Assembly (NCBI GenBank): GCA_026395685.1
Contig: JAPLYG010000007.1
Location: 1 to 54,994, forward strand
DNA from: Candidatus Parcubacteria bacterium
GTDB taxonomy: Bacteria; Patescibacteriota; Patescibacteriia; CAIXNZ01
Reading direction: 5' to 3'
Length of the DNA: 54,994 bases
Part shown: one piece after another, positions 36,916 through 41,684 of the stretch
Layout of the letters: every line of letters starts with the position of its first letter
Position numbering within the stretch: the first letter of the stretch is position 1
Made by a program: the position numbers and the translations under genes
Notes under the pieces: model-generated
The model's database searches: none
What the model saw: the letters and a program-made list of their open reading frames with translations, nothing else
Told to the model about the DNA's origin: nothing

Positions 36916-37073
36916 TTGACAAAACAACTTTCATAATTATGATATTTTGCCAATTTTAGCCAAAATGACCCAAGAGACTCTTGACAGGTCCATTTAGATT
37001 TGCTATACTGGCTAATCAAAGTTAAGAAGGAATAGGCGTTTATCTTGACAAAATTTCAAAAATGTGCTATACT
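36916..37073 (+). promoter_or_regulatory. Three tandem sigma70-type promoters
   Basis: TTGACA at 36916, 36981 and 37045 with TATGAT (N16), TGnTATACT (N17) and TGnTATACT (N17); about 65-bp spacing. Confidence 0.75.
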
Positions 37074-37100: not shown

Positions 37101-37431
37101 ATTTAGTCGACAGAAATATGGGGGTAGTAGTGCATCAGAATAGTAGAATTTTTTGGCCTAGCTGAAAAATCTCTACGACTGGTGTTTAACTGGTAAGACT
37201 CTGTTCTATACCAGCCGTTCCGCTTGCGGAACAACACCTCCATATTCCTGTCTGCTAAATTCAGTTTAAGTTCCGAGCCAAGGGCAGGCAGATAGTTCTT
37301 AATTATTTAAAATGTACATTATAAATTTAGAGAACTTATCTAAAGCCCTTTGTCTGGAACTTAAATAAAAATTCGTTGCCTGATTCCAAGACGGGATAGT
37401 CTCGTGTAGATTATTTTGTCTTGAAATGAGG
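37101..37431 (+). ncRNA. Structured RNA/leader: multi-branched domain plus two long hairpins
   Basis: 37101-37125 pairs with 37236-37260 enclosing three helices; hairpins 37265-37365 and 37379-37431. Confidence 0.55.
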
Positions 37432-37469
37432 AAGTGAATTTTTTTCAACAACTAGCAAAGGAGCATATA

Positions 37470-37598
37470 ATGTTTCAGGTAAAGTTCACGGAAGAAAACG
37501 GGGGATACATCAAGACCCTCGACACCCTGGCAGAGGTCAATTTCTGCCTCCACCTCAAGCTCATCGAGCATGACAGCGTCAAGCTGCTCCTCGGATGA
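37470..37598 (+). CDS. 42-aa small protein MFQVKFTEENGGYIKTLDTLAEVNFCLHLKLIEHDSVKLLLG
   Basis: AAGGAG RBS, C-ending codon bias matching the two downstream genes; below ORF-track cutoff. Confidence 0.65.
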   Translation: MFQVKFTEENGGYIKTLDTLAEVNFCLHLKLIEHDSVKLLLG

Positions 37599-37759
37599 AC
37601 TACCTCTAGAGGCCTAAACAAAGGCCCTTCACCTGAGTACAAAATAAAAATTTTGTCTTCAGGCGAGGTTCCCAAACCTCTTGATCGTATAAACAGTTAA
37701 TTAGTGTTTTTTCATAATCACAAAAACGTCTGCCAACCACCCTTAAGGAGGGATTTACC

Positions 37760-38527
37760 ATGGCAAAGAAAACCGCGTCCAAGAAAGAAGCGACCAAACC
37801 CGCCACCACCAACCTGACCCCGACCCCGGCCGAGACCCCCGAGCAGAACGGCAAGCAGTCGGAACTCACGTACCTCTGCTCCGCCTGCTCCAAGACCTAC
37901 GGCACGGCCAGCGAAGGCGTCACCACCGACGAAGACGGCAAGCCCGACTACACGAACGCCAAGATGTGGGCCAAACCGAAAACCGTGGGCGCCGAGCACG
38001 AGCCCGAGGCCATCTGCGCCGAGTGCAAGGCTCTCGCCGAGGAAGAGGCCAAGGCCGCCGGCAATCAGCCCCCGGTCTACCACCCGCTCCTGGCCACGAT
38101 CGAGCGCGACAAGCGCTGGGTCGAGAACAGGGCCCGCTACGAGGAACGGAAGCTGAACGCCGAGACCAATCGGGACAACTTCCTGGGCAAGCTCTACGAC
38201 CAGAGCCTGCGCACCGTCCGCGAAGACGTGGTCTGCCACGTCTGCGGCAAGTACCATGGATTCATCCAGTACTTCAAACCGCGGGGCGAGCGCTTCACCG
38301 TGATCGAGCACGCCACCACCGCCGTGAAGGACGGGAAGACCATGGTCCTGCCGATCTGCCGCTCCTGCAGAGCCGAAGCCGCCGAGGCCCTGGGTGACCA
38401 GTACCACGACGTCTACTTCCGCGAAGCAGTCCGGCAGACCGCCGACGCCAACGCGAAGGCCGAGAAGTTCGCGGCCTTCGTGAAACCCGCAACCCCGCGC
38501 TACATCCCGCGCGGCAAAAGGGGCTAA
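37760..38527 (+). CDS. Hypothetical double zinc-ribbon protein (4 CxxC)
   Basis: AAGGAGG RBS; CSAC, CAEC, CHVC, CRSC; strong G/C third-position bias in this frame. Confidence 0.8.
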   Translation: MAKKTASKKEATKPATTNLTPTPAETPEQNGKQSELTYLCSACSKTYGTASEGVTTDEDGKPDYTNAKMWAKPKTVGAEHEPEAICAECKALAEEEAKAAGNQPPVYHPLLATIERDKRWVENRARYEERKLNAETNRDNFLGKLYDQSLRTVREDVVCHVCGKYHGFIQYFKPRGERFTVIEHATTAVKDGKTMVLPICRSCRAEAAEALGDQYHDVYFREAVRQTADANAKAEKFAAFVKPATPRYIPRGKRG

Positions 38528-38711
38528 CCAGCTCCTCATCTTGTTCGGCAGACTGATCAACATCATGTTGGCGGGGCATTTCATCATCCGATGATTGCCC
38601 CGCCTCTTCATCTTAAAACAGAATTTTACATTGTGTTTTTAGACGAAGAAGATTCCAGTAAGTAAGTTCATAAAAAACAAACATTTAACAGCCCTAAGGG
38701 GAGGAGGAAAC

Positions 38712-39518
38712 ATGTCGAAAGCAAGCAAACTGGCTCGCCAGGCTCGTAAGAACGGGCAGGTCATGCAGGATCTTCAGACTCAGGAAGGCATGGTCAGGTG
38801 CGTCTACTGCAACACCGTCGGCCATCGTGACGAGATCACGATCGACCCGGACACCGATGCTGTGCGCAAGACTTTCCATGCTCTCCCGCGACCCCTTTCG
38901 GGTTCGACCGAGGGTATCCAGGCCGTGTGCATCTACTGCACCTTCACGCACCGCCAGGACCTGCGCAAGCAGTTTCCCGAGTGGTTCACGACCCACAAGA
39001 ATCTGCCGGTCTACGTGCATCTGCTCGAGCAGGAGATCGAGTGGGGCAAGAAGTATCCGCCGGCCATGAAGCGGGTCAACCAGTACATGGAACAGCTGCA
39101 CATCGTCCCGAACTCCTGGCAGAAATGCCACAAGTGCGGGAAGACGCACGGCGAGGTCTTCATGACTAGCTTTCTGCCCAACCTGCAGTTCCGCTGCGCC
39201 AACGTCGCCTGGGTTCTCGGCTTCCACCAGACCCTCGCCGAAGTGATGGAGCACCTGATCTGCCAGGATTGCCGCGAGACTAAAAACCAGGAAGGTATTC
39301 GTACCTTTTACCTGGAACGGACTCTGGACTTCCTGTCGGAAAAAGAGGCCAGGATCAAGCGCTTCTACCTGCACGGCAAGACTCAGCAGAAGAACTCGGC
39401 GACCGCGTCGACTCCGGCGACTGCGAAGCCCCAGGTGTACAAGGGAAATGATCCCAAATACCGGGGCGTTCCCACGCAGTTCATTCCCAAGGCGGTATTT
39501 GGCAGCAAGCACCGCTAA
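38712..39518 (+). CDS. Hypothetical double zinc-ribbon protein (4 CxxC), likely paralog of the previous gene
   Basis: GGAGGAGG RBS; CVYC, CIYC, CHKCGKTHG, LICQDCRE; strong G/C third-position bias. Confidence 0.8.
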   Translation: MSKASKLARQARKNGQVMQDLQTQEGMVRCVYCNTVGHRDEITIDPDTDAVRKTFHALPRPLSGSTEGIQAVCIYCTFTHRQDLRKQFPEWFTTHKNLPVYVHLLEQEIEWGKKYPPAMKRVNQYMEQLHIVPNSWQKCHKCGKTHGEVFMTSFLPNLQFRCANVAWVLGFHQTLAEVMEHLICQDCRETKNQEGIRTFYLERTLDFLSEKEARIKRFYLHGKTQQKNSATASTPATAKPQVYKGNDPKYRGVPTQFIPKAVFGSKHR

Positions 39519-39585
39519 ACAACAAGCGCCCACCATGGCTATAAGCTAGGTGGGCTCCATACTAAAAAACATGATCAGTTATAGC

Positions 39586-39614
39586 TTGACAAGATTATTA
39601 TAATCTGCTATCAT
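39586..39614 (+). promoter_or_regulatory. sigma70 promoter of the large non-coding unit
   Basis: TTGACA-N17-TATCAT with extended TG. Confidence 0.7.
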
Positions 39615-39620
39615 AAGATC

Positions 39621-41106
39621 ACGCTTTTCAGTAAGGAACAAGGGATATCAGTCAGAAAACTCAAAGACCTATGGCCATCGCTCGGCTCAGGTCTGCAACC
39701 CCCAATGGAGGTTCCCATGTTCACGAGCGGATTTGTCCGATGAATAGCCCACAACGTGGCTAGCCGTCCCGGGCATAAAACGGGCGTTGTTTGTCACCGT
39801 TTTGCACGTTAGCAAAATGGCGTAGTGTTGAAGGAGCAGGCCTTCCGGATGATTCGTGATCATCACTATGGAGCCGGGATTTAAATACGGCTCCACCTCA
39901 TCCAAGAACGCAAATCTTGCAAAGTAATAAAACTGCTGAACTGGCAGAGAAACAAGTTTACGTTCTTAGATGAGGTAGAACATTGAAAGAGAAAGAAAAA
40001 AAATTTTAATATAGACTGAAGCAAAGGTTCGCGGCAGAGAAATCTGCTGCGAGAGGTGAAGGCAACCACAAAGGAGCAAGGATGAAACCACGTTTTCCGA
40101 GTGGCTTTACCGCACGCCTAGGGACGCCTGGTCTCCGCAATGCGGAGTCCCGCCCCGAATAACCAGGCGCCGTATTCTTCACACCCGCAGAGTCTGACAA
40201 AGCGAAAGGAGAGGTTGCAGTGGCAGTGCTGAACTGGCTGCTGGAAGTTATTTGCCGCCTGATCCCGAAAAAGATCCGGGTGACGAGGCTTTCGGTGGCT
40301 TACTGGTTCAACGAGCACACCGTGCTTTTGAGCCAAGAGGTTTCTGTCAATGTGCAACCGCAGTCATTCGGCGACTGTATGGTGCGTTGATCAGATACCT
40401 TCAGGACGACAACATCTTCACAAAAGTACTGCTCCGCCCAAAGCGGCCTACGTCGGCTGCTAGGAGTCAGTAACTGACTGTTCTGGACATTGCCGGGGTG
40501 CGTTTGAAAGAAATATCGTTTTTACCCACGGCAATTGTTCGGACCAGTTTTTCCGAAAACCAAAGCGGGAGGGTATAAGATGCTGAGCCCGTTTGCATTC
40601 AAGACTAAACAGGGTTCCTGGTCCCCCTGCACAAAACCAGGCGCAAAGAGCTTCGCCCACTGAGCCATAATCAGCGGGCAACAGCAGAGCAGAGAGTTAA
40701 CGGGACAGCGTTCCCTTGCACGGCTTGCTCAAAAAACAGGGGATCTACGTTCGGGCTGTCCGAACAAATGACCCACGAAGTAAAAACGAGCAGCTGACTC
40801 CTTTTGTCCCGCATCGGTACCCCCGCCGACCAAAAAGGGGATTCGCGGAAACGCATGACGGAAGGAACGACCTTGTTCTCCGCCTGCGTTCCTCGATACC
40901 TGCTGACAAGCGCCGACATTTGTTCGGACCTTACCACGGCGCTTGTGCAGCGAGCCGTATGCCGGATGCGTTGGACCATCCTAAAAACCGGCCGAAAAAA
41001 AAGTGTCTGGGGTTTCCTCTGAACCCAAGCTTGCATGGCGCAGGCAGAAAAAACAGAGGCCTGGGCGGAAGCGATCGTCACCCGACGATGCGCTTCCGCC
41101 CTTTTT
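39621..41106 (+). ncRNA. Candidate large (~1.48 kb) structured non-coding RNA of unknown class
   Basis: Promoter and terminator bound it; no convincing ORF; continuous helices, A-rich linkers and long-range pairings. Confidence 0.65.
41063..41106 (+). terminator. Strong intrinsic terminator
   Basis: GGGCGGAAGCG-ATCGTC-ACCC-GACGAT-G-CGCTTCCGCCC-TTTTT. Confidence 0.8.
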
Positions 41107-41291
41107 AAATTAATGCGAATAGTATTTAGATTGCCTTAATAAAATTATCAATAAACAATTCTCAATCATCAAGCAATACCTAATACCAAAGACCTAATAA
41201 CCAAAACACATCTTTAATTTAGTATTTAAATGTTTTAATTTGTTTGGTTATTGAGAATTTATTATTTGATATTAGAAAAAGCGGTCTGAGC

Positions 41292-41345
41292 TATCATACC
41301 GAGTGAAACGAGGGAAATGGATTCCTTGCTTCGCTCTGAATGACA
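41292..41345. repeat. Degenerate copy of the REP-like TCAT…GAATGACA palindrome
   Basis: TCATACCGAGTGAAACGAGG…CCTTGCTTCGCTCTGAATGACA inside a terminator stem. Confidence 0.6.
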
Positions 41346-41378
41346 ACTAGACCGCTTTTTTTATATGTGTGTAGTAGT

Positions 41379-41684
41379 TTATTCAGAAACTGCTGCTGGC
41401 GCGCTCTTGCCTTTTAAGGCGTCTTTTAAAGCTTTGCCTGATTTGAATTTGGGGATGACAACTTCAGGAATATCAATTTTTTCATTAGGCTTCTGAGGAT
41501 TTACACCTTTACGCGCATGTCTGACTTTAGCGGAAAATGTTCCAAATCCGGTTAAGACTACTTCCTCCTGTTTTTTTAGAGTTTCAGTAATAGTATCCAG
41601 GCTGGTTTCCAGAATTTCTTCCACTTGTTTCTTAGTCAAATTTGTTTTGGAGGCAACGGCCTCGATTAAAGCTGCTTTGTTCAT
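41379..41684 (-). CDS. hup: DNA-binding protein HU
   Basis: MNKAALIEAVA, LTGFGTF, RKGVNP, PKFKSGKALKD. Confidence 0.95.
   Translation of the reverse strand: MNKAALIEAVASKTNLTKKQVEEILETSLDTITETLKKQEEVVLTGFGTFSAKVRHARKGVNPQKPNEKIDIPEVVIPKFKSGKALKDALKGKSAPAAVSE

What the first reader, a model, noticed from the sequence alone, without database searches (positions are those of the whole stretch)
39586..41106. Candidate giant (~1.48 kb) structured non-coding RNA of unrecognised class
Seen: a near-consensus promoter (TTGACA-N17-TGnTATCAT, 39586-39614) and a strong terminator (41063-41106) bracket ~1.48 kb that is more GC-rich than normal intergenic DNA here, yet holds only short ORFs without codon bias. 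It is tiled with helices separated by A-rich linkers: CCGTTTTGC/GCAAAATGG (~39797-39820), GGAGCCG/CGGCTCC (39870-39894), ACCTCATCCAAGAACG/CGTTCTTAGATGAGGT (39895-39976), TCGCGGCAGA-GAAA-TCTGCTGCGA (40029-40052), CGCCTGGT/ACCAGGCG, TGGTTCAA/TTGAGCCA, ACATTGCCG/CGGCAATTGT and more. Many G-U pairs work on the + strand, and the ends can pair (39653-39668 with ~41005-41021). Known: large bacterial ncRNAs such as OLE, GOLLD, ROOL and HEARO are generally shorter than this, and I see no hallmarks of rRNA, RNase P, tmRNA or self-splicing introns. Inference: a new large RNA class in a streamlined genome that otherwise wastes little space.
Basis: partly seen in the sequence, partly recalled or inferred. 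Interest (0 to 1): 0.9.

Follow-up and report, generated by a model that had tools for sequence, protein, structure and literature searches.

The report
Modular structured RNA with conserved micro-ORF
The 1.5 kb stretch is a real, hairpin-rich RNA gene without a normal protein frame, but it is built from smaller conserved RNA modules and carries a tiny conserved peptide gene, so it is a new kind of mixed coding and structural RNA in ultra-small bacteria and not one giant conserved fold.

Summary
Window 39586-41106 is a promoter-to-terminator unit with no long ORF under three genetic codes. Its predicted folding is far below shuffles (z -5.4), and Rfam has no match.

It is the 3' part of a 3.4 kb GC-rich island (50-68% GC in a ~38% GC genome). 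A comparable island lies beside the HU gene in every related locus examined.

The RNA is not one conserved 1.5 kb fold. Orthologous regions measure 0.8-2.2 kb and share only short modules:
- Module A is a two-hairpin unit (17 copies; 12 of 17 pairs change on both sides).
- Module B is a helix plus a hairpin with an AAGCAGA loop (19 copies, found across the class).
- A Shine-Dalgarno-led micro-ORF encodes M-x-F-P-S-G-F-T-stop. It shows synonymous changes and AGY/TCN serine switches.

In the window the conserved core is about 450 nt (39717-40165): micro-ORF, module B, module A, micro-ORF. Module A also precedes both island protein genes.

A close strain keeps 39898-40595 about 98% identical despite 1-nt indels.

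No transcription data exist. Function is inferred: probably a translation-coupled regulatory or RNP RNA.

The parts
39586..39614 (+). sigma-70-type promoter, TTGACA-17-TGcTATCAT
   Evidence: Scores 11 of 12 with an extended -10 TG. In a close strain the differences at 39594 and 39605 fall in the spacer, not in the hexamers.
39621..41106 (+). predicted transcript, ~1486 nt, no long ORF
   Evidence: for ORFs. MFE z = -5.4. The ends are predicted and not mapped; no RNA run was listed.
39707..39743 (+). GGAGG, 5 nt, then micro-ORF 1 (MFTSGFVR, stop TGA)
   Evidence: It sits at the same relative place as MKVFLSGEG in L027.
39763..39787 (+). conserved block 'P' (contains CCGTCCCGGGCA ... CGGGCG)
   Evidence: Nearly identical in L027 and G006. 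It is invariant, so it gives no covariation information.
39789..39849 (+). module B: helix 39797-39805/39812-39820, then a 5-bp stem (39830-39834/39841-39845) with an AGCAGG loop
   Evidence: Model R2 gives 26.5 bits. It is the only hit in the whole genome, but this copy was in the model's seed. Covariation.
39823..39897 (+). variable segment
   Evidence: Replaced by 102 other letters in contigs of runs X2-X4 (table 5).
39867..39978 (+). module A copy: H1 39870-39894 and long H2 39895-39976 with a ~42-nt insertion at its tip
   Evidence: Model R1 gives 24.9 bits, E 2.4e-4, and 18.4 bits with filters off. About 80% identical in G001, G002, G009 with one compensated pair.
40029..40052 (+). 10-bp hairpin with GAAA loop
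   Evidence: Only partly alignable with L027.
40071..40162 (+). AAGGAG, 5 nt, then micro-ORF 2 (MKPRFPSGFT plus a 16-residue extension)
   Evidence: It aligns with MKRFTSGFL-stop of L027 with a 3-nt gap and synonymous differences.
40355..40382 (+). block D hairpin (40361-40365 with 40373-40377)
   Evidence: Shared with G006, and with G011, where one pair is compensated.
40607..40786 (+). block E, weak similarity to L027
   Evidence: nhmmer E 2.3e-4.
41063..41106 (+). intrinsic terminator
   Evidence: -31.9 kcal/mol hairpin plus T5. A plus-strand terminator-like hairpin near the 3' end was found in 11 of the 12 other loci (all but G005).
37606..37670 (+). module A copy about 90 nt upstream of P0001
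   Evidence: R1 gives 26.2 bits, E 4e-5 to 1e-4.
38570..38651 (+). module A-like pair of hairpins between P0001 and P0002
   Evidence: R1 gives 15.1 bits, E 0.04-0.1, which is weak.
37760..38527 (+). P0001, 255 aa, protein with two zinc ribbons, 65% GC
38712..39518 (+). P0002, 268 aa, paralogue of P0001, 58% GC

Best explanation
WHAT IT IS. The stretch is the local member of a lineage-restricted, previously undescribed family of modular, hairpin-dense RNAs that also carry translated micro-ORFs. It belongs to a GC-rich island that a family of Patescibacteria keeps beside a convergent HU gene, downstream of rpoC where the upstream flank could be read. Public record titles of relatives read Candidatus Falkowbacteria or Parcubacteria.

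SHOWN
- It is a promoter-to-terminator unit without a long ORF.
- It contains module B and module A, whose base pairs covary in relatives and in other families of the class.
- It has two Shine-Dalgarno-led micro-ORFs of the conserved type [F/L/Y]-x-S-G-F-x-stop.
- Its first ~1 kb is more conserved between two strains than the neighbouring protein gene, despite frame-breaking indels.

INFERRED MECHANISM (about 35% for this version; the confidence of 0.6 given here is for the descriptive reading above)
- The RNA works in cis as a translation-coupled regulatory or RNP scaffold.
- Ribosomes load on the micro-ORF. Its peptide is selected at the amino-acid level and, in most copies, one residue and then a stop follow S-G-F. 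This is the pattern seen in arrest peptides.
- Ribosome occupancy would then remodel the neighbouring A and B hairpins.
- Module A stands about 60-110 nt before the island ORFs examined in the window (P0001, P0002, micro-ORF 2). It is probably the operator or binding site for an island-encoded protein, or a processing or anti-termination signal.

The ~940 nt downstream of 40165 is lineage-specific structured RNA whose role is unknown.
For: NO KNOWN FAMILY, NO HIDDEN GENE
- Rfam: only two tRNAs in the window at gathering score. In 39400-41400 there are three matches at E 5.5-9.2, all far below gathering.
- No long ORF under tables 11, 25 or TAG=Q.
- No third, decayed copy of the zinc-ribbon gene: the profile finds only the two genes in G000.

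FOLDING
- Whole-transcript z = -5.4. In 200-nt windows inside the RNA, plus-strand z is -0.4 to -5.7.

SYNTENY
- All 13 loci examined have a GC-rich ORF, then a 0.8-2.2 kb GC-rich ORF-poor region, then a convergent HU gene. The 13 loci are 12 of the 14 family genomes including the window, plus metagenome contig L027.
- rpoC lies upstream in 11 of the 13; G001 has other genes there and G005's contig begins inside the island.
- A plus-strand terminator-like hairpin near the 3' end was found in 12 of the 13 (all but G005).

MODULE A
- 17 copies in 12 loci. 91.3% of cells are paired and 12 of 17 pairs change on both sides.
- 0 of 500 shuffles reach the observed value. Slid controls give 31-52% paired.
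- G-U pairs dominate two columns, which fits the plus strand only.
- Window copies lie at 37606-37670, 39867-39978 and, weakly, 38570-38651.
- In family genomes the strong hits are nearly confined to this island.
- 12 of 147 sampled non-family genomes of the class have a hit at E <= 0.001.

MODULE B
- 19 copies (14 genomes of other families plus 5 family loci, including the window). 95.9% are paired.
- The loop hairpin has 4 of 4 pairs changed on both sides, and 0 of 500 shuffles reach the observed value.
- It is a single hit in G000 (that copy was in the model's seed) and is found in 9 of 147 non-family genomes (5 of those 9 were also in the seed).
- B and A lie about 0.7 kb apart on one strand in G048 and G138.

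MICRO-ORF
- All 12 copies encode S-G-F. Codons used are Ser AGC x8, AGT x1, TCC x2, TCG x1; Gly with all four third bases; Phe TTT x7, TTC x5.
- There are 25 SD-led ATG ORFs of <=12 aa on the plus strand, against 2 on the minus strand and 5.4 +/- 2.4 in 200 shuffles.
- 7 of the 25 end in SGF-x-stop. No tripeptide exceeded 2 in any shuffle.
- GGAGG occurs 48 times on the plus strand against 20.8 +/- 4.8 in shuffles.

NUCLEOTIDE-LEVEL CONSERVATION
- Six-frame similarities between loci are spread evenly over strands (25 plus, 23 minus). The other blocks are therefore conserved as nucleotides, not as protein.

STRAIN COMPARISON
- 39625-39822: 2 differences.
- 39898-40595: 13 differences and 4 gaps.
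- 40569-41106: 45 differences and 11 gaps.
- End of P0002: about 13 differences in 105 nt.
Against: - No transcription or translation data exist. No RNA run was listed, so the promoter, the RNA ends and translation of the micro-ORFs are all predictions.
- The window's own micro-ORFs are atypical. Copy 1 ends VR-TGA. Copy 2 has lost the immediate stop and runs to 26 aa.
- SD-like motifs are not enriched in the window's RNA itself: GGAG occurs 8 times against 7.0 +/- 2.5 in shuffles.
- The window was not in the seed alignment of module A. Its copies score only 15-26 bits, and the 39895-39974 hairpin scores about as well on the minus strand.
- Module B was not found in the two same-genus genomes G001 and G002.
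- No micro-ORF of this type was seen in 3 of the 13 loci: G005, G008, G012.
- Nothing lies downstream on the same strand for a leader peptide to regulate. The next gene is convergent.
- In several relatives a promoter-like site lies after module A rather than before it. There module A would be a 3' element of the protein gene.
- Kin are few and related, so the shuffle controls overstate significance. For about two thirds of the window's RNA (40165-41106) there is almost no comparative information.
Confidence: 0.6

Rival explanations
1. One reading: one giant (~1.5 kb) stand-alone structured non-coding RNA with a single global fold, comparable to GOLLD, ROOL or OLE. The short ORFs would be incidental.
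For: - The whole-length folding z-score is -5.4.
- A strong promoter and terminator bracket the stretch.
- There is no Rfam match.
- A GNRA tetraloop caps most module A copies. This is a feature common in large folded RNAs by general knowledge.
- 39898-40595 is 98% conserved between strains.
Against: - Length varies from 811 to 2217 nt, and module content and order differ between genera.
- Same-genus genomes share only about 95 nt with the window.
- The micro-ORF is under amino-acid selection.
- Module A also occurs outside the stretch, in front of protein genes.
- The proposed pairing of the ends is absent from the MFE and centroid.
Confidence: 0.15
2. It is chiefly an mRNA for very small peptides, either a signalling peptide or the precursor of a modified peptide made with the neighbouring zinc-ribbon proteins. 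The hairpins would serve only to stabilise the message.
For: - The peptide is conserved at the amino-acid level and has a strong SD.
- G004 and G011 carry 48-50 aa hydrophobic ORFs that end in the same SGF[T/A] motif. They are 38% identical over 53 aa with diverged DNA.
- The peptide genes sit next to genes of unknown function in the same island.
Against: - 7-9 residues without a leader is shorter than nearly all known precursors (recalled, not tested).
- The island proteins match no enzyme family or solved fold.
- Islands with the other protein family carry the same micro-ORF.
- Simple stabilising hairpins would not need conserved loops, a conserved C-A mismatch and covarying stems.
Confidence: 0.15
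3. It is decaying or selfish GC-rich foreign DNA, a remnant of a mobile element at an integration hot spot, with no function of its own.
For: - GC content is 50-68% in a ~38% GC genome, and this includes the protein genes.
- Gene content differs between relatives, with two protein families.
- Sequence turns over fast.
- An IS200-like ORF lies upstream of the island in G001 (name recalled from its sequence).
Against: - The island holds the same place and layout in all 13 loci, across 8 genera.
- No integrase was seen, and no hit in viral contigs.
- No phage or defence family matches.
- It is single copy.
- Base pairs covary, and the micro-ORF changes synonymously.
- Strain-level conservation exceeds that of the adjacent gene.
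Confidence: 0.05

Closest known systems
Large bacterial ncRNAs of unknown function (OLE, GOLLD, ROOL; Rfam families; cryo-EM paper PMC12286853 seen as search listing and abstract only)
   Same: It is long, GC-rich relative to the genome, hairpin-dense, bracketed by its own promoter and terminator, and lineage-restricted. Its function is unknown.
   Different: No sequence or structure match to any of them. Length and architecture are not conserved. It carries translated-looking micro-ORFs, and its modules recur in front of neighbouring protein genes.
Dual-function RNAs that are both regulatory RNA and small-peptide mRNA (RNAIII/hld, SgrS/SgrT, SR1/SR1P; recalled, no call)
   Same: A structured RNA and a conserved short ORF with its own SD lie in one transcript.
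   Different: The peptide here is only 7-9 residues in most loci. There is no evidence of base-pairing targets, and the RNA is several times longer.
Sequence-dependent regulatory micro-ORFs and arrest peptides (TnaC, ErmCL, cat86 leader, eukaryotic MAGDIS uORF; recalled, no call)
   Same: A very short ORF whose amino-acid sequence is conserved. In most copies the stop follows one residue after S-G-F, and TAG is the usual stop.
   Different: No downstream gene on the same strand. No known arrest motif resembles F-P-S-G-F-T. Stalling is untested.
HK022 put RNA and lambda nut sites (cis-acting hairpin elements that modify RNA polymerase; recalled, no call)
   Same: Module A is two adjacent hairpins about 75 nt long, separated by 1-2 nt. 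It is repeated along one transcription unit that is full of terminator-like hairpins.
   Different: No sequence likeness was tested or is known. In some relatives a promoter-like site lies downstream of module A. The organisms are not phages.
TIGR-Tas guide-RNA arrays of phages and Patescibacteria (PMC12045711; passages read)
   Same: A non-coding array lies next to a small protein of unknown family in Patescibacteria.
   Different: TIGR arrays are regular 8-12-nt repeats with 9-nt spacers, or box C/D stem-loop arrays, next to a Nop-domain protein. Here there is no tandem repeat in 39586-41106 and no Nop domain.

Membership tests
Any Rfam 15 family (including OLE, GOLLD, ROOL, HEARO, RNase P, tmRNA, 6S, group I/II introns) | Covariance-model score at or above the family's gathering score | tested here: not met
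   Window: only two tRNAs at 18.3-18.5 kb. In 39400-41400 at E <= 10 there are three matches of 16-21 bits, against gathering scores of 43-57.
SRP RNA (Bacteria_small_SRP RF00169, large RF01854) | Helix 8 with a GNRA tetraloop and the AGCA segment in an internal loop | tested here: not met
   Module B contains GGAAGCAG-like letters. Covariation, however, places AAGCAGA in the apical loop of a 4-6 bp hairpin, with 4 of 4 pairs changing on both sides.
SRP RNA (Bacteria_small_SRP RF00169, large RF01854) | Match to the Rfam models, and presence of the partner protein Ffh | tested here: not met
   RF00169: 0 of 14 family genomes and 0 of 5 other class genomes. RF01854: 0 of 1. PF02978 and PF00448 were not found in G000. 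PF00448 scored over its cut-off in 0 of 5 further genomes.
TIGR-Tas | Regular tandem array of short repeats and spacers | tested here: not met
   Tandem Repeats Finder finds nothing inside 39586-41106.
TIGR-Tas | Adjacent Nop-domain protein | tested here: not met
   Pfam scan of P0001 and P0002 finds no Nop domain and nothing above cut-off.
Leader or arrest-peptide micro-ORF | Short ORF with a ribosome-binding site | tested here: met
   GGAGG or AAGGAG lies 4-8 nt before ATG in 10 of 12 copies; the other two are the ends of 48-50 aa ORFs.
Leader or arrest-peptide micro-ORF | Conservation of the peptide rather than of the nucleotides | tested here: met
   12 of 12 copies encode S-G-F using both serine codon families, all four glycine codons and both phenylalanine codons. 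7 of 25 short SD-led ORFs end SGF-x-stop, against at most 2 for any tripeptide in 200 shuffles.
Leader or arrest-peptide micro-ORF | A regulated gene or terminator choice downstream | tested here: inconclusive
   No gene follows on the same strand in the window. In G010 and G011 the micro-ORF lies 25-70 nt before the terminator, and elsewhere hundreds of nt before it.
Leader or arrest-peptide micro-ORF | Ribosome stalling on the peptide | not testable with these tools
   Needs toeprinting or ribosome profiling.
Conserved structured RNA motif (general criterion) | Compensatory base-pair changes beyond controls | tested here: met
   Module A H2. Module B. For the window-specific 3' 940 nt it was not testable, because there are too few alignable relatives.
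Transcribed RNA | Reads from RNA libraries covering the stretch | not testable with these tools
   No RNA run was listed.

The most novel reading that the evidence does not exclude
The whole 3.4 kb GC-rich island would be one self-contained ribonucleoprotein system of Patescibacteria. In this reading a heavily structured RNA both encodes and is bound by its own zinc-ribbon proteins, through the module A hairpins placed before each cistron. A ribosome-arresting micro-peptide (F-P-S-G-F-T-stop) would gate it, and module B would be a class-wide sensor or ribosome-contacting element. That would be a new class of translation-coupled RNA machine in organisms that, by the searches here, appear to lack the SRP pathway.
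Probability: 0.12. Interest if true: 0.9.

Novelty: new variant of a known kind. Interest (0 to 1): 0.72.

Why it matters
Patescibacteria make up a large share of bacterial diversity, have tiny genomes and are almost unexplored for RNA biology. This work found three things:
- a conserved locus that spends 1-3 kb on GC-rich structured RNA;
- two covariation-supported RNA motifs that are absent from Rfam, one of them spread over many families of a class;
- a 7-9 residue ORF whose peptide is conserved through synonymous and serine-family codon changes.

A peptide this small and this conserved is a directly testable candidate for a new ribosome-arrest or signalling peptide. The hairpin module placed in front of each island cistron is a testable candidate operator for a protein family that has a confident predicted fold but no solved relative.

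Tried and rejected
REJECTED EXPLANATIONS
- Hidden protein gene under another genetic code: rejected. The 130-aa ORF 40716-41108 is broken by 1-nt indels in a close strain.
- Decayed third copy of the zinc-ribbon gene: the profile finds only the two genes.
- Divergent SRP RNA: rejected.
- TIGR array: rejected.
- Phage or defence origin: no PHROG or PADLOC family. There were no viral contigs with P0001 or with the micro-ORF pattern.

SEARCHES THAT GAVE NOTHING USEFUL
- Names for the island proteins: Pfam, NCBIfam, ESM Atlas and Foldseek against PDB gave nothing usable.
- Expression: no RNA holder was listed. The four DNA runs laid are contigs and say nothing about transcription.
- RNAalifold on four copies of the P and B region gave a weak consensus of -7.3 kcal/mol.
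- Genome-wide pattern scans:
  - Metagenome scan with the hairpin pattern: 4 hits, 2 of them chance.
  - Genome scan with the micro-ORF pattern: 7 hits, 3 of them probably chance. One of those three, L033, is a Patescibacteria record with a CxxC ORF nearby; it was not followed up.
- The raw pattern for module B hit 67 of 401 class genomes, but the reversed control pattern was also frequent. That count is not used as a prevalence.
- Literature: three searches were read as listings and abstracts only. They showed no description of this RNA, so the claim that it is not in print rests on these three searches and on Rfam. Supplementary tables of PMC12045711 were not seen; they might list loci in these organisms.

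TOOL FAILURES
- The search for related loci with alignment A2 failed because no stretch was conserved enough.
Full report
THE OBSERVATION

- A TTGACA-17-TATCAT promoter with an upstream TG lies at 39586-39614 and scores 11 of 12.
- A -31.9 kcal/mol hairpin followed by five T ends at about 41106. My script found it; the consensus scanner did not list it.
- Between them no ORF exceeds 136 aa. Reading TGA as Gly or TAG as Gln does not open a convincing frame.
- Rfam gives nothing. The window has only two tRNAs at gathering score. In 39400-41400 there are three chance-level matches.
- The predicted folding energy of the 1486-nt transcript is -563.9 kcal/mol, against -483.2 +/- 14.8 for 25 dinucleotide shuffles (z = -5.4). 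The minus strand gives z = -5.05, so energy alone does not choose a strand.
- In 200-nt windows the plus-strand z inside the RNA runs from -0.4 to -5.7. Inside the two upstream protein genes it runs from +0.2 to -2.3.

CONTEXT

The GC-rich tract is wider than the finding.
- From about 37650 to 41100 the DNA is 50-68% GC, in a window that is otherwise 33-45% GC.
- The first 1.8 kb of the tract holds two plus-strand genes with strong ribosome-binding sites: P0001 (37760-38527) and P0002 (38712-39518). They are paralogues with eight invariant cysteines in four CxxC pairs.
- The protein family is rare. There are 31 representatives at E <= 0.001 among 1.84 billion.
- It matches no Pfam, PHROG, PADLOC or NCBIfam family.
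- AlphaFold gives a confident model (pLDDT 89.8), and Foldseek finds no solved relative (best E 0.07).
- The stretch is single copy in the 1.24 Mb genome.

THE LOCUS IS CONSERVED, THE SEQUENCE IS NOT

- The family holds 14 genomes. An HU gene like the window's (41379-41684, minus strand) was found in 13 of them.
- I read 13 loci: 12 genomes including the window, plus metagenome contig L027. G009's contig is cut inside the RNA, and G003 had no HU hit.
- In each locus a GC-rich ORF of 216-391 aa is followed by 811-2217 nt of GC-rich, ORF-poor DNA and then the convergent HU gene.
- In 11 of the 13 loci a large ORF lies upstream of the island. I take it to be rpoC from its sequence; no family search was run. 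G001 has other genes there, and G005's contig begins inside the island.
- The GC-rich ORF is of the CxxC type in 6 loci (the window carries two copies). In the others it belongs to what appears to be one other family (by eye, not tested).
- A plus-strand terminator-like hairpin near the 3' end was found in 12 of the 13 loci (all but G005).
- Nucleotide similarity is limited to short colinear blocks. The two same-genus genomes share only about 95 nt with the window's RNA. L027 aligns over about 400 nt plus a weak second block.

MODULE A

- In 17 copies from 12 loci the second hairpin (H2) has 91.3% of cells paired. 12 of 17 pairs change on both sides, 0 of 500 shuffles reach the observed value, and slid controls give 31-52% paired.
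- By inspection of the alignment, H2 has a conserved C-A mismatch and, in most copies, a GNRA-type tetraloop.
- G-U pairs are the commonest state in two columns. This fits folding of the plus strand only.
- A covariance model of these copies (R1) did not include the window. It finds three plus-strand sites in the window:
  - 37606-37670, 26.2 bits, about 90 nt before P0001;
  - 39867-39978, 24.9 bits;
  - 38570-38651, 15.1 bits and weak, about 60 nt before P0002.
- The long hairpin at 39895-39974 scores about as well on the minus strand.
- In the family genomes the strong hits are almost confined to this island.
- 12 of 147 sampled genomes of other families in the class have a hit at E <= 0.001, some of them in GC-rich patches.
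- In G086 the module flanks a CxxC gene on both sides.

MODULE B

It is a helix, a conserved single-stranded segment, and a 4-6 bp hairpin with an AAGCAGA-like loop. In the window that hairpin is 39830-39845.
- Within the family there are 8 copies in 6 loci, all on the plus strand.
- The motif is class-wide. In an alignment of 14 genomes of other families plus 5 family copies, 95.9% of cells pair, all 4 pairs of the loop hairpin change on both sides, and 0 of 500 shuffles reach the observed value.
- Model R2 has one hit in the whole G000 genome, at 39789-39849. That copy was in the seed.
- R2 also hits 9 of 147 non-family genomes, 5 of which were seeds.
- In G048 and G138, modules B and A lie on one strand about 0.7 kb apart.
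- Rfam recognises nothing at the motif in 14 such loci.
- R2 found no copy in G001 or G002.

THE MICRO-ORF

- In 10 of the 13 loci the plus strand carries a strong Shine-Dalgarno motif, an ATG 4-8 nt later, and an ORF with [F/L/Y]-x-S-G-F near its end. In 9 of the 12 copies one residue and then a stop, usually TAG, follow directly.
- All 12 copies encode S-G-F. Serine uses AGC, AGT, TCC and TCG. Glycine uses all four codons, and phenylalanine both.
- Across the 13 loci there are 25 SD-led ATG ORFs of 12 aa or fewer on the plus strand. The minus strand has 2, and 200 shuffles give 5.4 +/- 2.4.
- 7 of the 25 end SGF-x-stop. No tripeptide exceeded 2 in any shuffle.
- GGAGG and AGGAG are two- to three-fold enriched on the plus strand only.
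- The window has two atypical copies:
  - 39717-39743 encodes MFTSGFVR.
  - 40082-40162 encodes MKPRFPSGFT plus 16 residues, because an insertion displaced the stop.
- The window's RNA is not itself enriched in SD motifs.
- Other similarities between loci appear equally in all frames and on both strands. They are therefore nucleotide-level blocks, not proteins. The exception is a 48-50 aa hydrophobic ORF of G004 and G011 that ends in the same motif.

ARCHITECTURE IN THE WINDOW

- The window and L027 belong to different genera but share one order over about 450 nt: micro-ORF, block P, module B, variable hairpins, module A, A-rich linker, hairpin, micro-ORF.
- Downstream of 40165, only a compensated hairpin (40361-40377, shared with G006 and G011) and a weak block (40607-40786, shared with L027) are shared.

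STRAIN-LEVEL CONSTRAINT

Contigs of three runs from two studies hold a close relative.
- 39625-39822: 2 differences and two 1-nt indels.
- 39823-39897: replaced by 102 other letters.
- 39898-40595: 13 differences and 4 gaps.
- 40569-41106: 45 differences and 11 gaps, many of 1 nt.
- Last 105 nt of P0002: about 13 differences.
- The promoter hexamers are unchanged.

The region is thus non-coding in the usual sense, yet its first kilobase is better kept than the adjacent gene. This rests on one relative.

INTERPRETATION

Shown:
- a conserved, plus-strand, modular structured RNA locus with an embedded peptide-level-conserved micro-ORF;
- no match to any described RNA family.

Inferred:
- that it is transcribed as drawn;
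- that the micro-ORFs are translated;
- that ribosome occupancy and the hairpin modules act together, with module A as an operator or processing or anti-termination site before each island cistron.

I put about 0.6 on the descriptive reading and about 0.35 on that mechanism.

LIMITS

- No expression data exist.
- The relatives are few and related to each other.
- The window's copies of module A score modestly.
- Two thirds of the window's RNA has no comparative support.
- Literature was covered by three searches only.

Noticed in passing
window 36916-37073: Three near-consensus plus-strand promoters (each 11 of 12, two with an extended -10 TG) lie 64-65 nt apart in the AT-rich gap after the large upstream gene, pointing into the island. 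The region has 8 promoter-like sites against 3.0 +/- 1.7 in shuffles.
   Followed up: partly
window 37101-37700: Downstream of those promoters the 200-nt windows fold far better than shuffles, with plus-strand z of -4.2 to -7.1. A 42-codon ORF by eye at about 37471-37596 precedes the first module A copy. This may be a further structured leader of the island.
   Followed up: no
window 37760-38527 and 38712-39518: P0001 and P0002 form a rare family with two zinc ribbons (8 invariant Cys plus an invariant His-Gly). The AlphaFold model is confident, yet there is no Pfam, PHROG, PADLOC or NCBIfam family and no Foldseek hit in PDB. Their 58-65% GC in a 38% GC genome is unexplained.
   Followed up: partly
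G000 whole genome, plus G001, G004, G096, G192, G211, G216, G349: Three searches for the SRP pathway were negative. The Rfam SRP RNA models found nothing in 14 family genomes or in 5 other class genomes. The Ffh M domain (PF02978) was not found in G000. The SRP54 GTPase domain (PF00448) was not found in G000 and scored over its cut-off in 0 of 5 further genomes. The control genomes all ring. This class may lack the SRP pathway or have very divergent parts.
   Followed up: partly
L050, L051, L055, L056 (genomes G096, G216, G029, G349): In other families, module B is preceded by GGAGG, a short spacer and a two- or three-codon ORF (GTG AGA stop; GTG AGA CCC stop). It is followed by a terminator-like hairpin. 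This is a possible start-stop element tied to module B.
   Followed up: no
window 41276-41378: A long hairpin with A/T-rich tails lies between the RNA's terminator and the stop of the HU gene. It is 83% identical over 103 nt in G001, and G012 shares a 28-nt core, with local z of -7 on both strands. It is probably the HU terminator or 3' UTR element.
   Followed up: no
L009 (G001) and L010 (G002), non-coding part: The same-genus relatives carry an internal duplication of about 340 nt that includes a module A copy. G001 positions 4-258 match G002 positions 18-274 and 355-611.
   Followed up: no
L033 195-229 and 347-664: A Patescibacteria genome record outside the family has GGAGG, ATG and M-S-N-S-G-F-T-stop about 120 nt upstream of a 105-aa ORF with CxxC pairs. 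It could be chance (about 6 chance hits were expected by my estimate) or a distant instance.
   Followed up: no
window 41143-41205: Short AT-rich 7-nt and 14-nt tandem repeats lie just after the terminator. The close strain has this 100-nt stretch replaced by 65 other letters.
   Followed up: no
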